Source: Octopus vulgaris (lineage: Eukaryota). From it: a stretch of 64,000 nucleotides of DNA. The notes below the pieces were generated by a model that saw only the letters and a program-made list of their open reading frames with translations, made no database searches and was not told the DNA's origin. A program made the position numbers and the translations under genes. Location: assembly GCA_951406725.2 (NCBI GenBank), contig OX597832.1, positions 63,674,001 through 63,738,000 on the forward strand, written 5' to 3'. Shown here piece after piece: positions 1 through 57,481 of this stretch; the first letter of the stretch is position 1, and each line of letters begins with the position of its first letter.

Positions 1-644
1 TGGCCGCAGTCCACTGTCTGAAACAAGTAAAAGATAAAATACGACATAAAAAAAAGAGCAAACCTTTCTTCTTGCATCACAACAGACTCAAAAATATCGA
101 CATCATTAGGAACATCGTTGATGTGGATGTTCTCGACAGACATAGTGGTGACTGAGACAACCAAATCTGTGAACGGTAAACGACGAGGCAGGGAACCCTA
201 CCGGATGTTATCTAACAAGTACAGGGTGGGTTATCTACATTTGTTTAAAAAAATCTAAATGAATTTCGTTGAATTTGAATGCAAATACTATATAAACATC
301 AAATTATTAACAAAACTTATTGAAAATATAAGTTAAAATCTAAAACGAAAAAAGATTTTCGTATTCTTTCAAAAATAATTTAATATAACTATATTTATCA
401 AAATTATGCAAATCAGGTAACCTTGTGTTTATAATTACAATGCTTATTGTAGTATATATAGAAATTCCATAACTGATGCTATTGTGTTGCAAAAAAGGAG
501 AGACGGTTAGCACTCCCCTTGACAAGGACGGAAGAGATCAATCGATCTTTCTAACACATATGGGCATTGCTCTCTACTTCAGAGCAACCTATTTTTTCTT
601 TTCGCTTCTACTTTGCGTTCCTGCACACGTCGTTTCTATTTATC

Positions 645-6874: not shown

Positions 6875-7575
6875 AAAAGCGGTCGACAAGGGTCGAGCCG
6901 TGGTGATGTGGTGCGCAGACCTCTACAAGGCTGAAGCTCTTCGCCAACTTCAAAACACCTCCTTCTATTGCCCTCTGCCTTCCAACGCCTAGCTACCAAC
7001 AGACTGTGTTCTCCACTATCCATGACCTCATCTCCTCCACCCGTTCCCCTCCTACCGCCTCCAACCTCATTGTCCGCACTCTTTGCAACCCCACCATTTA
7101 CTCCCTTCCCCAAATCCACAAACCCAAGAACCCTGGCTGCCCTACCGTCTCAGTCTGTAACAGCCCCACAGAATTGATCGCAAAATACCACGACCATGAC
7201 CTTGCCTCCTAGTGGCTTACCTCCCCTCACACATACACGACACTAACCATGTTCTTCGTCTTGTCATATCTCTTTCTCCTTTCCTACTGGCCCCTCTAAA
7301 CTTCTCTTCACTCTTGATATCAAAAATCTATATACGGTGAGCCCACACCACGAAGGATTTCTTGTCCTCAAACACCTCCTAGACCTTCGACCCAAAACCC
7401 AATCTGACACATCCACACTTCGTCTGCCCGAACTTGTTCTCTCCCTCAGGTACTTCTCGTTAGCGGGGGAGTTTTACCGTCCAGTCTCGGGAGTGGCCAT
7501 GGGAACGAGGATGGGCCCCAACTATGCGAACCTGTTCATTGGCTGCATTGAGGCCCAAGTATTTTCAAGATTCAC
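6875..7575 (+). mobile_element. Penelope-like element reverse transcriptase fragment (frameshifted)
   Basis: KAVDKGRAVV, IYSLPQIHKP..PGCPTVS.CNSPTE, LFTLDIKNLYT, YFSLAGEFYRPVSGVAMGTRMGPNYANLF are PLE RT motifs. Truncated at (TA)n. Confidence 0.9.
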
Positions 7576-7584
7576 TATATATAT

Positions 7585-7664
<80 letters not shown>

Positions 7665-7673
7665 GTATATATA

Positions 7674-8920
7674 CTAGTAGTATAATCCGGTCTTGCCCGG
7701 GATTAAATTACGATTATTAAGCTAATCAAGTTCTTTATTTCAAACCAAACTAATATAGACATCAAATTTGGGCGAAATCCGTTGAAATTAGTTATATTAT
7801 ATATACATATATATATTATATATATTATATCTATATAATATAATATAAATATATATGGGCAACAGACACGAACACACATACAAACACGTACGTAGGTAAA
7901 CCTATTGCATGTTTTGTGCACGCATACATGTTCATAAACAGAAATGAATGGAAAAAGTGTTGTTAAATTTGTAGATTAACACTCGTACAATTTTCACTAA
8001 GAAGAAAAAATCGTTTTTTTAGCATGGAATCAACTACTCTGGCCTCAAACCCCTTTTTGTGGTCCGTGAAACGGAGTGGGATGTGGTGGAAGCCTTGCAA
8101 ATTATATTGTGTAATTCACTGACAAATTGTTACTCACCTCTTTGTTTCTTTGCTGTTAAATAAATGGATTGTCAACAAAACACTTTTTTACTCGGCGTAA
8201 AATAAAGACAAAACTTTCGCACCCAAAGTAATGTGTGAGAGAGAGAGTGAGCGGAGGAGAAAGATGAACGATTTAAAATAAATAAATGATTTAAAATAAA
8301 TACATTGTAATTGTTGTGTGAGAAAGTATATATACTATGATTATAAAATATAGGGTCTTTCAAAAACACCCAGAATTTGAATACTATATCTCGTGTTTAA
8401 GAAAAAAACAAAGCATTTTACATTTTATTTTTTATGAACGTCGTCACTTTCTCTCTCTCACTTTGTCTTTCCATTTTTTGTTTAGACGCTGTGAAACTGC
8501 TTCTCTTCCACTTTTCTTTATCTTGTTTTTTTTTGTTAGACGCCGTCAAAAAGCTATGGCTGATATTTTTTATGAACATCGTCACTTACTCTCTCTTTCT
8601 CCCCCTCTCTCTCTCACTTTGTCTTTCCCTTTTTTTGTTTAGACGCTGTGAAACTCTGCTTCTCTTTCACTTTTCTTTATCTTATTGTTTTTGTTAGACG
8701 CCGTCAAAAAGCTATGGCTGAAAATTAATTTTTACCGCTAAAAGCTATGGCTGAAAATAGATTTTTACCGCTATCCGCGGGTGCCTCGGGAAAAAAATAA
8801 GTTGAAAAAACCCAGATAGGATTTTGACGAATGTCCTCCTAAAATTTGAGCGACATACGTGCTAATTTGTGGATGTGCATAAACTACAATCACGTACACA
8901 CACACACATCTTGCCGTCTA

Positions 8921-12166: not shown

Positions 12167-13040
12167 CAGGGTGTGATGGGTAAATTGTTGCCATTTTATA
12201 TATTTAATTTCATGCATGCACATTGTTTTTGGTTTTGTCAACTACACAGTATAGTAGGGTCAGTTGGGCACCATCTGTGAGAAAAACAGCGCCATGACAC
12301 AGTTCACTCTGCCAAAAATTTGGAAATGACATGCTGTATTGTTTGGCATTCATGCTGGAAATTCCAATATGAACATTTCAGAGTGTTTGGGCATCAATCT
12401 GAGGAGAGTGCAGAGGATTCAGAAAGAGTTAGATGAGTCTGATGGTGATTACAAAGGTATTGCATCTCAGAAAACTCACTCTGATTGTTCTGATAAGAAA
12501 AGAACTGGATTTGTTGGTGAGATCCAGGCCATGATTGACAATGATCCCTCCAAGTCAATCAGGTCCATCGCCAGGGACATGAGAGTGTCTGAGTTTCTTA
12601 TAAGGCAGCTAGTGCATGAAGACATTCAGTATTCCTCATACAAGATGTTAGAGGGTCATTTTTCATCCCAAGCCATCAAAGACAAGAGGAAAGACAATGC
12701 TATGAAGCTTTTGAACGAACTTAAGTATCCCCTCCAACTGAATATGATTTGGTTTTTCTCAGATGAGAGAAATTTCTGCCAGGATCAGATGGTGAACACA
12801 TAGAACAACTGTTGGCTTGCCATGTTCCCAAAACATGTACCAAGAATGATAAAAATCAAACATCCAGTCAACATCATAGTGTTTGGAGTGATCACTAGTG
12901 ATAGTGATGTTATGCCTCCATTCATCTTCTCACATGGCCTCAGACACAACACGGAGGCCTGGAGGTGGTAGTGCTGCTCTGGATCAAGAGGGTGACTGCT
13001 GGAAGACCCTATGTCTGACAACAGGACTCTGCACTATTGC
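12167..13040 (+). mobile_element. Tc1/mariner (maT/DD37D-like) transposon fossil, 3'-truncated
   Basis: TA|CAGGGTGTGATGGG terminus; HTH region (PSKSIRSIARDMRVSE), WFFSDERNF, VFGVITSD..VMPPFIF and YV*QQDSA, with stops and deletions. Confidence 0.88.
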
Positions 13041-52285: not shown

Positions 52286-52831
52286 TATTAGAGCAAGATT
52301 AAAAATCATCCCAAAGCACATCTATAAAGAAATTTTATCACAGAATATAAGTGTTAAGTATGATACAGATTACCCTGAAGAAAAGGGGTACAATGCAAAT
52401 TTACATTATGTTGTAATACGTAATGCAATTTGCATTGGTAATAAATAAGAAGGCTATTGAAACGTGTGTAGTGATGTTATGAGCTGTCTATTTTCTACTC
52501 GATACACTGCATAACATGTACCAGTTATGCATACAGGGGTTTTCAGGATACCCAAGATAAGTAAACAACTGTATAACTCTACATTGATCATTATACTGAC
52601 CAACTGCATGACCAGGAAAACTTCCTCTTGGAGTAATCCATTAGCCAGAAATATATGGGGATGCTTTCAAGTTAATTTGCCAAGATCTATTTGATTTCCA
52701 TTGTACAGGGGAGGCCAAAGTCATGTATAAAATAATGCTCTGGAATTGTCAAAGACATGCTTCAATTTTTCTAAAACTGAATGAAATAAATAAAATAATG
52801 ATGAATACACATGTCATACAAAATGAATAAC

Positions 52832-53012
52832 AACAAGAGCACTCAGAGAGAGCAAACCTCTGCCAAAGCAACACCAACGTCCTCTCAACGATTAGCCGGA
52901 GATGGTTTTTGAAATGAGAATATCTGAAATACACTTGACTGCTCTCACAAACGAGAATACTAAAAATGAACCCGACCGCTCTCAAAAATTAAGTAAAAAA
53001 AAAAAATCCAGA
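52832..53012 (+). mobile_element. Truncated HINE/Helentron-like element (empty-site copy)
   Basis: Colinear with 54368-54452 joined to 54812-54895, without the palindromic insert. Confidence 0.8.
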
Positions 53013-54114: not shown

Positions 54115-54536
54115 CCTTTCTGCTATAGGCACAAGGCCTGAAATTTGGGGGAGGGGACTAGGTGATTATATGCCCCCCCTCCACCATAGCGTTCAACTGG
54201 TATTTATTTTATTGACCTCAACAGAATGGAAAGCAAAGTCAACATTAGTAGAATTTGAACTCAGAACACGAAGACAGATGAAATGCTGCTCAGCATTTTG
54301 CCCAGCGTGCTAACGATTCTGCCAGCTCACCACCTTAACAACAACAACAATAATAATAATAATAATATCAAGAGCACTCAGAGAGCATAAATCTCCACCA
54401 AGACAACACCAATGTCCTCTCAATGATTAGCCGGAGATGATTTTTGAAATGAAAGCAATTACAGCGTGGAAGGTGTTTATAAGCCATTTAAGAAACACAC
54501 AAAAACTGTTAGATTCAGTTCAACATTTAAATTTAA

Positions 54537-54587
54537 TTTGTCAAAATATTTTCGTCGCTTTGAGACCGCGACTTGTTCACTGACAAA
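54537..54587 (-). ncRNA. Minimal hammerhead motif with G3-C8 core swap (copy on the pre-mRNA strand)
   Basis: tttgtca-GTGAACA-a-gtcgc(ggtctcaaa)gcgac-GAAA-ATAT-TT^-tgacaaa. Perfect 7-bp stem I, 5-bp stem II, palindromic AATATT stem III. Confidence 0.65.
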
Positions 54588-54607
54588 ATTCCGTGTTGCA
54601 TCTCAAT

Positions 54608-54658
54608 TTTGTCAGTGAACAGGTCGCGGTCTCAAAGCGACGAAAATATTTTGGCAAA
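54608..54658 (+). ncRNA. Minimal hammerhead motif with G3-C8 core swap (second copy)
   Basis: tttgtca-GTGAACA-g-gtcgc(ggtctcaaa)gcgac-GAAA-ATAT-TT^-tggcaaa, with one G-U pair in stem I. Confidence 0.62.
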
Positions 54659-55703
54659 TTAAATTTAAAAGTTGAAGTGAATCTAATGGTTTTTGTGTGT
54701 TTCTTAAATGGCTTATAAACACCTTCCACGCTGCAATTGTTTTCGCTCCAGCACATGATCTCAGATCAGGTCACTTGCTATGCAAGTATATCTCTGTAAT
54801 TTTTAAAATCAGAATATCTGAAATAAACTCGACTGCTCTCACAAACGAGAATACTAATAATGAACCTGACCACTCTCAAAAATTAAGTAAAAAAACAGGA
54901 ACAATAATAATCCAGAATCCTTGTCTGGTACCAGATTGATACCAAAAGCTAATCAGTTCGTGCCAGTTATGAGACCAAACATTCCTGAAAGTTTCATCTG
55001 AATCCATTCAGTGGTTCTTGAGATATCTTGTCCACAGACAAACAAACACAACTGAAAACAATACCTCCACCTTCACTAAGGCAGAGGTAATAATAATAAT
55101 CCTTTTTACTGTAGGCACAAGGCCTGGATTTTGTGGGGAGGGAATATGTCAATTGCATTGACCCTAGTGCTTAACAAATACTTATTCTATCAACCCCTGG
55201 AGAGATAAAAAGCAAAGTCAACCTCAGCAGAATTTGAACTGAAAATGCAAAAAACATGGATAAAATGCCACTAAGCTTTTGTTCAGCATCCTCACAATTC
55301 TACCAGCTCATCACCGTTAATGATAATAACAATAAACACACACACAGAGCAAGATGCACCAAAATACCAACTCGTAATTTAGTGTGGCACAGCAGCAAAA
55401 CCTGCAAATATTCTGAATAGTATGCAAGGTGACAGAAAGAGATGACAGATATTTTCTCATTACGTCAAAAGTCTTCAGAAGTGGCAATGAAGTAAACAAG
55501 ACTGGTTGTGTATTTATAGCATGCATACCTGTACTTATAGATGCAGGCATACCATACATATATGTGAGTGCATATTTATAGCTACGCATCTGTATGTACA
55601 CAGCAAACCCACCGCTCACCACCACCACCGCCATCACATACAAAAGAGACAGCTAAACATAAGCATTCACATAAACAGTACCGTTCTTAATATATTTTCT
55701 GTA

Positions 55704-57162: not shown

Positions 57163-57195
<33 letters not shown>

Positions 57196-57199
<4 letters not shown>

Positions 57200-57436
57200 A
57201 GCCATACTCCATGCAGACTTTTAAGCTAGCTCCTGCAGAGGGTTAATTGGGCCTTGCAGCCCCAAACTAAAAAGAGGTAAATAGCATGACTATCATCATC
57301 ATCATCGTTTAAGCGGACGTTAAACGATGATGATGATGATAGTTATGCTATTTACCTCTTTTTAGTTTGGGGCTGCAAGGCCCAATTAACCCTCTGCAGG
57401 AGCTAGCTTAAAAGTCTGCATGGAGTATGGCTTTTA
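57196..57436. repeat. Fold-back palindrome, 117-bp arms with one mismatch and 7-nt loop
   Basis: 57196-57312 is the reverse complement of 57320-57436; loop gcggacg. Confidence 0.95.
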
Positions 57437-57481
57437 AGGTAGTATACATATATAATTGCAGTCTCCTTGCAAATACATTAA

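What the first reader, a model, noticed from the sequence alone, without database searches (positions are those of the whole stretch)
54537..54658. Two divergent hammerhead ribozymes with a natural G3-C8 catalytic-core swap
Seen: both palindrome arms have full type-I hammerhead topology (7-bp stem I, 5-bp stem II, GAAA, one-bp stem III with palindromic tetraloop), but the core reads GUGAACA instead of CUGANGA. Established: positions 3 and 8 form a tertiary Watson-Crick pair, and C3G/G8C double mutants partly rescue cleavage. Minimal hammerheads with palindromic loop III are typical of Penelope-like elements and are thought to act as dimers. Inference: changes at exactly positions 3 and 8 are compensatory, so this is a selected variant that CUGANGA-based searches would miss. 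The UUU cleavage triplet is suboptimal, so activity may be low.
Basis: partly seen in the sequence, partly recalled or inferred. Interest (0 to 1): 0.8.

Follow-up and report, generated by a model that had tools for sequence, protein, structure and literature searches.

The report
Swapped-core hammerhead of a Penelope retrotransposon
This palindrome is a truncated, inverted insertion of a jumping gene (a Penelope-like retrotransposon) with over 8,000 copies of a hammerhead-shaped RNA motif in which two paired core letters have traded places; sister families in the same genome use two other matching pairs, so the self-cutting shape is likely kept by selection, although cutting itself is untested.

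Summary
Confirmed, with corrections. The motif is the pLTR ribozyme of an autonomous Penelope-like element (RT plus C-terminal GIY-YIG; a tandem copy carries two identical same-strand motifs 4.26 kb apart) with about 8,500 core matches against 200 control. Homologous sister families (52-60% protein identity) carry C3-G8 and U3-A8 with compensatory stem II changes, so all three pairs occur in one clade; in a search leaving position 8 free, 91 of the first 100 hits were Watson-Crick. The two window motifs lie on opposite strands and a read-through RNA folds into a 140-bp hairpin about 70 kcal/mol more stable, so this locus is likely inert, not a ribozyme pair. Cleavage is untested; many copies start upstream of the intact motif with an extra G (likely capped, uncut templates), and one young sister subfamily has lost A9. 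I found no natural G3-C8 in the papers I could read (Lunse 2017 not held); this scan noted it before in other genomes. New variant of a known kind.

The parts
54608..54658 (+). Minimal type I hammerhead motif, G3 = 54615, C8 = 54620, extra base 54622; predicted cut after U17 = 54651
54537..54587 (-). Second copy of the same motif in the inverted arm, G3 = 54580, C8 = 54575; predicted cut after 54544
54605..54798 (+). 5'-truncated pLTR copy of the Penelope-like element, with tail; ends at the family's sharp 3' end
54452..54604 (-). Inverted pLTR copy without tail; starts at the family's common 5' end 23 nt upstream of G3 (54603), preceded by a G (54604) that the full-length pLTR lacks; the apparent 14-nt spacer is this leader
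54708..54798 (+). First 91 nt of the element's ORF (start codon at 54708; this copy has a stop at codon 17); 54745-54798 is the tail present at one end only
   Evidence: same start continues into the ORF in L174
54440..54451 (+). Left copy of a 12-bp target-site duplication (10 of 12 identical), beginning with ATT
   Evidence: compared with the empty site at 52895-52935
54799..54810 (+). Right copy of the target-site duplication
54369..55088 (.). Unrelated older repeat that received the insertion; an empty copy lies at 52826-53001. Resembles Helentron-associated non-autonomous elements (recalled, not tested)

Best explanation
The palindrome is a 5'-truncated, head-to-head insertion of an autonomous Penelope-like retrotransposon whose pLTR carries a minimal hammerhead motif with a G3-C8 core pair, likely kept by selection for the hammerhead's active fold and predicted to cut slowly after U17, as a dimer or with protein help, only in tandem full-length transcripts and not at this locus. 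Shown: parent element, copy number, three Watson-Crick states of the 3-8 pair in homologous families, tandem elements with two same-strand motifs, target-site duplication. Inferred: a transcript starts about 23 nt upstream of G3 and is capped; reverse transcription starts inside the ORF at two sites (about 35 and 91 nt after the start codon) and runs back to the cap, giving short copies with an intact motif; two such copies joined head to head give the palindrome. Inferred: in a pLTR-ORF-pLTR transcript the self-complementary hexamer 15.1-16.1 of two motifs would form helix III in trans. A read-through RNA of the window copy is predicted to be one long hairpin that hides both motifs.
For: Parent: 1025-aa open frame with RT motifs A, B, C, a CX3CX2C linker and Pfam GIY-YIG, of 65 endonuclease hits at 81% identity or more, 42 had the motif about 1.0-1.4 kb downstream within the fetched flank (41 G3-C8, 1 G3-G8); tandem copy with two identical motifs at G000:C4:22956741 and 22961002. 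Covariation: C3-G8 families (2,877 redundant matches, 8 control), U3-A8 family, tails and ORF starts homologous, proteins 52-60% identical, G3-C8 clade 100/100 and sister to C3-G8 + U3-A8 99/100. With position 8 free and position 3 not C, the first 100 listed hits were 54 G-C, 37 U-A, 9 other (hand count). In 18 hand-picked rows 13 columns are invariant, among them U4 G5 A6 A9 G10.1 C11.1 G12 A13 A14 A15.1; stem II has two pairs with changes on both sides. G3-C8 persists through at least three layers with different loop 2 and N7. No variant at positions 3 or 8 above 5% in contigs of 4 runs labelled as 4 organisms. 5' ends: 14 of 50 tail-selected alignments start at -27 to -16, 3 of 50 reach further upstream; 20 of 27 copies truncated at the AG have a G before it where the pLTR has a pyrimidine. 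Literature: extra base after A9, opposite-strand pairs and dimer cleavage (PMC4209133); inverted 5'-truncated copies and tails (PMC8557442); internal RT start, ATT target, partial C3G/G8C rescue, protein-assisted cleavage (PMC11167929).
Against: No cleavage data. Only 1 of 50 tail-selected alignments starts exactly at the predicted cut and 5 of 50 within 3 nt; most copies came from uncut RNA. The youngest long-ORF copies of one C3-G8 sister family have A9 changed to C (8 of 18 family-B copies), so a family can spread with a damaged core. About 7% of G3 copies lack C8 (643 matches, 101 control) and G8 is somewhat commoner than A8 (34 against 21 of the first 100); these are scattered on a quick tree. 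The predicted dimer helix is all A-U and worth only -0.2 kcal/mol; the trans junction beats the open core by 0.4 kcal/mol. Family-level evidence amounts to two independent double changes; if both positions change, a pair arises by chance 1 time in 3 each. The C-G and most G-C rows were collected by patterns that fix those letters, so that count is partly circular. Stem I of the U3-A8 family is only 3 bp. The hammerhead was not needed for insertion in vitro in PMC11167929.
Confidence: 0.72

Rival explanations
1. The fold is conserved for a non-catalytic job (binding of the element's protein, translation control of the ORF 93 nt downstream, or template handling); the 3-8 pair is kept as structure, and cutting is negligible in the cell.
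For: Templates were mostly uncut; A9C master in a sister family; very weak dimer helix; no RNA ends at the cut site and no need for cleavage in the anole element (PMC11167929); low in vitro activity of minimal motifs (PMC4209133).
Against: The 3-8 pair is a feature of the active conformation (established knowledge; PMC3884650 and PMC3088659 passages); the catalytic residues G12, G5, A6, A13, A14 and the U-H site are invariant across the 18 rows while loops and flanks diverge.
Confidence: 0.17
2. The motif is a decaying relic; the swaps are lucky neutral drift in a handful of master copies and thousands of copies only repeat the master.
For: Copy number is not independent evidence; only two double changes are observed; A9C and scattered G3-G8 copies exist; Naiad elements spread without hammerheads (PMC8557442).
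Against: Across proteins 52-60% identical the core is otherwise almost unchanged, and changes fall at 3 and 8 together and at paired stem II columns; G3-C8 survived several amplification waves while loop 2 and N7 changed.
Confidence: 0.07
3. The window palindrome itself is a functional unit: two divergent ribozymes cutting sense and antisense RNA, or a domesticated hairpin / small-RNA source.
For: Both motifs are intact; a read-through RNA would be a 140-bp hairpin that scores against hairpin miRNA models below their thresholds.
Against: The same inverted layout is common among copies; target-site duplication inside another repeat; the hammerhead fold costs 73 (+) and 67 (-) kcal/mol against the hairpin; opposite-strand motifs cannot form the cis dimer.
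Confidence: 0.04

Closest known systems
Minimal hammerheads of Penelope-like elements (Cervera and de la Pena 2014, PMC4209133; parts 1-2 of 4 of the text and supplement parts 1-2 of 3 read)
   Same: Type I, in the pLTR, extra base between 9 and 10.1, G10.1-C11.1, palindromic 15.2-16.2 region, thousands of dispersed truncated copies, pairs on opposite strands, natural U3-A8 variant.
   Different: G3-C8 appears in none of the Fig. S3 rows that I read (all begin CUGA or UUGA); here three Watson-Crick states occur within one clade in one genome.
PAc (Poseidon of Anolis) hammerhead and tail mechanism (Frangieh et al. 2024, PMC11167929; parts 1-2 of 4 read)
   Same: Motif at the pLTR-ORF junction, two 3' ends inside the ORF start, ATT at the target, uncut RNA as template; engineered C3G/G8C partly active.
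   Different: There G3-C8 is a laboratory mutant; here it is the natural master. The ORF starts 93 nt after G3 rather than inside stem II; tail about 55 nt rather than 30-40; linker of Neptune/Nematis type.
Natural core variants of hammerheads (Perreault et al. 2011, PMC3088659; section 8 read)
   Same: Natural covariation at positions 3 and 8.
   Different: Only U3-A8 is named in that section.
Neptune/Nematis-type EN+ Penelope-like elements (Craig et al. 2021, PMC8557442; passages read)
   Same: C-terminal GIY-YIG, CX2-5CxxC linker, pLTRs, inverted truncated copy, tail, (TA)n-rich targets.
   Different: DKG reads DKS and RT motifs A and B are 128 residues apart (59 in another element of this genome); clade not fixed with reference sequences.

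Membership tests
Hammerhead ribozyme (type I) | Three-way junction with stems I and II and core U4 G5 A6 A9, G12 A13 A14, A15.1-U16.1 | tested here: met
Hammerhead ribozyme (type I) | Watson-Crick pair between positions 3 and 8 | tested here: met
   G3-C8 here; C3-G8 and U3-A8 in homologous families; the canonical letters C3-G8 themselves are not met
Hammerhead ribozyme (type I) | NUH cleavage triplet | tested here: met
   UUU at 54649-54651
Hammerhead ribozyme (type I) | Stable helix III and loop 1-loop 2 tertiary contact of full-length hammerheads | tested here: not met
   closing helix III in the monomer costs 5.4 kcal/mol; minimal type, no Rfam hammerhead match
Hammerhead ribozyme (type I) | Site-specific self-cleavage after position 17 | not testable with these tools
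   only contigs were on offer, no raw RNA reads
Penelope minimal hammerhead | Located in the pLTR of a Penelope-like element, twice in tandem copies | tested here: met
Penelope minimal hammerhead | Extra base between 9 and 10.1, G10.1-C11.1, palindromic 15.1-16.1 stretch | tested here: met
   features listed in PMC4209133
Penelope minimal hammerhead | Cleavage as a dimer | not testable with these tools
   energy estimate marginal
EN+ Penelope-like element (Neptune/Nematis type) | Single ORF with RT followed by C-terminal GIY-YIG | tested here: met
   GIY-YIG above Pfam cut-off; RT by motifs and alignment to an RVT_1-positive element, E 2e-10; Pfam RVT_1, NCBIfam and PDB gave no direct RT hit
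EN+ Penelope-like element (Neptune/Nematis type) | CX2-5CxxC linker upstream of GIY-YIG | tested here: met
EN+ Penelope-like element (Neptune/Nematis type) | pLTRs, inverted truncated copy, tail at one end, variable target-site duplication | tested here: met
EN+ Penelope-like element (Neptune/Nematis type) | Phylogenetic placement among named clades | not tested
   no named reference sequences were fetched; tree holds only own-genome and unnamed proteins
Non-LTR retrozyme (non-coding tandem hammerhead repeats) | Non-coding 150-300 nt direct tandem repeats with canonical hammerheads | tested here: not met
   inverted pLTR fragment of a coding element; features from PMC7761336 passages

The most novel reading that the evidence does not exclude
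The G3-C8 hammerhead is an active ribozyme, and one Penelope clade has explored three of the four possible core pairs under selection for catalysis. Because the motif sits between the likely cap site and the start codon and copies are made from uncut, capped RNA, cutting would not prepare the template but remove the cap from tandem transcripts: a built-in switch that limits or times the element's own expression.
Probability: 0.22. Interest if true: 0.78.

Novelty: new variant of a known kind. Interest (0 to 1): 0.55.

Why it matters
The role of Penelope hammerheads in the cell is called unclear or a mystery in the reviews read (PMC8557442, PMC7761336). Three Watson-Crick states of the active-site pair in homologous, high-copy families are natural evidence that the active fold is selected, and give a ready set of natural constructs (G3-C8, U3-A8, C3-G8 and an A9C loss) for one side-by-side assay. 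Descriptors limited to CUGANGA or UUGANAA would call such a family ribozyme-free, which bears on claims that some Penelope clades lack hammerheads. The locus itself is an ordinary dead insertion.

Tried and rejected
Rfam scans of the window, of 54400-54900 and of four loci: no hammerhead match at any of the motifs, canonical sisters included. The 3.4-kb tandem on C2 looked like a tandem element but is a local duplication with no ORF of the family. Comparing sequence downstream of the tail among fetched loci showed no shared continuation; the parent was reached through the upstream side. Sequencing runs: no RNA holder listed on record, contigs only, so start sites, splicing and cut ends could not be seen. 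G3-G8 copies as a preserved intermediate subfamily: not supported, scattered on a quick tree of 87 copies. Homologue search found 3 unnamed proteins without genomic context, so cores in other animals were not seen. PDB and NCBIfam: no hit for the ORF. An intron ending just upstream of the motif (branch-point-like and acceptor-like letters) was considered; the heterogeneous flanks and extra G fit a transcription start better, but it is not excluded. Literature searches for a natural G3-C8: searches found only engineered cases; Lunse 2017, Przybilski 2007, Hammann 2012 and Arkhipova 2017 were not held, so novelty in print is not established.

Full report
Observation. The window is part of a 2.8-Gb, microsatellite-rich animal genome, G000. 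At 54452-54798 lies a palindrome with arms of 139-140 nt, 8 differences in 139, and a one-sided tail. Each arm parses as a type I hammerhead: 7-bp stem I, GUGAACA plus one extra base, 5-bp stem II closed by G10.1-C11.1, GAAA, AUAU, UU. [quoted passage not shown] A descriptor open to any 3-8 pair gave 2 hits in the window, both these, and 1 hit in 20 shuffled windows.

The family. The core pattern has 8,529 matches against 200 for the reversed control. All but a few fetched copies end at the same tail or at a second end about 55 nt earlier, followed by AT-rich flanks. Walking upstream through a microsatellite-rich pLTR reached the end of a GIY-YIG endonuclease. A protein search gave many near-identical young copies with open frames up to 1025 aa. 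That frame has RT motifs A, B and C, a CX3CX2C linker and GIY-YIG above the Pfam cut-off; the RT call rests on motifs and on alignment to an RVT_1-positive element (E 2e-10), as Pfam, NCBIfam and PDB gave no direct RT hit. One locus is a full pLTR-ORF-pLTR tandem with two identical G3-C8 motifs on the same strand, 4,261 bp apart; its ORF is in three pieces. The ORF starts 93 nt after G3 (54708 in the window), so the tail is the start of the ORF, as in the anole element (PMC11167929). The window copy sits in an unrelated repeat, with a 12-bp target-site duplication beginning ATT, shown by an empty copy at 52826-53001.

Is the swap compensatory? G3-C8 is the master state: 54 of 54 young and 83 of 100 middle-age copies in the fetched loci, anchored on flanks and not on the core (the loci themselves were partly collected by core patterns). 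Older, much more diverged copies keep G3-C8 with N7 = C and other loops and stems. Contigs from 4 runs labelled as 4 organisms showed no other letter above 5% at positions 3 or 8. The same genome holds C3-G8 families (2,877 redundant matches, 8 control) and a U3-A8 family. These are homologous: similar tails and ORF starts, endonucleases linked upstream, proteins 52-60% identical, with the G3-C8 clade (100/100) sister to C3-G8 plus U3-A8 (99/100) in a 15-row tree rooted at the midpoint. The least circular count is, where position 8 was free: of the first 100 listed hits (14,433 in all, 304 control) I counted 54 G-C, 37 U-A and 9 others. In an alignment of 18 hand-picked rows, 13 columns are invariant, the 3-8 pair is G-C 10, C-G 6, U-A 2, two stem II pairs change on both sides, and the covariation score 0.463 exceeds all 500 shuffles (mean 0.231) and all slid controls; the rows are related and were chosen partly by pattern, so this is not a probability. 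At family level the evidence is two independent double changes, both paired, against an otherwise nearly fixed core.

Results against. No cleavage was observed. One C3-G8 subfamily with long open frames has A9 changed to C (8 of 18 copies). About 7% of G3 copies lack C8 (643 matches, 101 control; T 45, G 34, A 21 of the first 100), scattered on a quick tree rather than forming a clade. The dimer helix is all A-U and marginal in energy. Copy 5' ends do not pile at the predicted cut: 1 of 50 tail-selected alignments starts there and 5 of 50 within 3 nt, while 14 of 50 start 16-27 nt upstream of G3 and 3 of 50 reach further (both arms of a palindrome count separately). Of 46 copies truncated at that upstream point, 27 keep the AG and 20 of these have a G before it where the pLTR has C or T (19 of 26 after removing a duplicate, P about 1e-9 against an 18% background, though junction microhomology can explain some). 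The window's left arm is one of them. I read this as reverse transcription to the cap of an uncut RNA started inside the pLTR (inference; cap-derived G is recalled knowledge); a splice acceptor at the same place is the alternative.

How it most likely works. Transcription starts just upstream of the motif; RT starts inside the ORF at two sites and copies back to the 5' end; two products joined head to head give palindromes like this one. The hammerhead would act only where two same-strand copies share an RNA, in tandem elements, slowly and perhaps with the element's protein, as reported for the anole motif, whose C3G/G8C mutant is partly active (PMC11167929). At the window locus the motifs are on opposite strands and a read-through RNA is predicted to fold into one hairpin 73 (+) or 67 (-) kcal/mol more stable than the hammerhead fold, whereas a single-arm young copy forms stems I and II with probabilities 0.89 and 0.995.

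Comparison with what is known. Natural U3-A8 is published (PMC3088659 section 8; PMC4209133). G3-C8 is absent from the Fig. S3 rows of PMC4209133 that I read and my searches found only engineered cases. Lunse et al. 2017, with very many Penelope-associated variants, was not held, nor were its supplements, and may contain it. U17 is common in published Penelope motifs. Earlier AI notes of this scan report G3-C8 with an extra base behind Penelope-like RTs in two other genomes and in a phage array; I did not test them, and they had no sequence match to this family.

Verdict. Real feature; new variant of a known kind; locus itself a dead insertion. Interest 0.55.

Noticed in passing
window 484-599 (+): U6atac minor spliceosomal snRNA gene or copy, Rfam 96.9 bits against a gathering score of 33.
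   Followed up: no
window 57178-57454: A second long palindrome (135-nt arms, 94%, 7-nt spacer) with no hammerhead pattern.
   Followed up: partly
window 7247-7717 (+): Fragment with an RT motif-B-like stretch, probably another Penelope-like family; not matched by this family's ORF.
   Followed up: no
window 12330-12800 (+): Fragment resembling a Tc1/mariner transposase (recalled resemblance).
   Followed up: no
L127 3971-7045 (-): RT motifs A and B are 128 residues apart (59 in L032), an insertion at the position of the insertion-in-fingers domain, which PMC8557442 describes for N-terminal-endonuclease elements, not for canonical C-terminal ones.
   Followed up: no
L280, L281, L272/L282 (G000 C7, C1, C16): C3-G8 sister subfamily with long open frames carries A9 changed to C in its hammerhead core.
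   Followed up: partly
family-wide; window 54603-54604 (-): Copies commonly begin 23 nt upstream of G3 with an extra G, suggesting a capped transcript start inside the pLTR.
   Followed up: partly
L032 4553-6841 (-): A separate Penelope-like family (RVT_1 plus GIY-YIG, 763-aa frame) with no hammerhead core seen by eye in the sequence just downstream.
   Followed up: no
L242-L247 (G000 C1 206.65-206.74 Mb): U3-A8 family copies repeated at about 15-17 kb spacing, probably a large tandem duplication.
   Followed up: no
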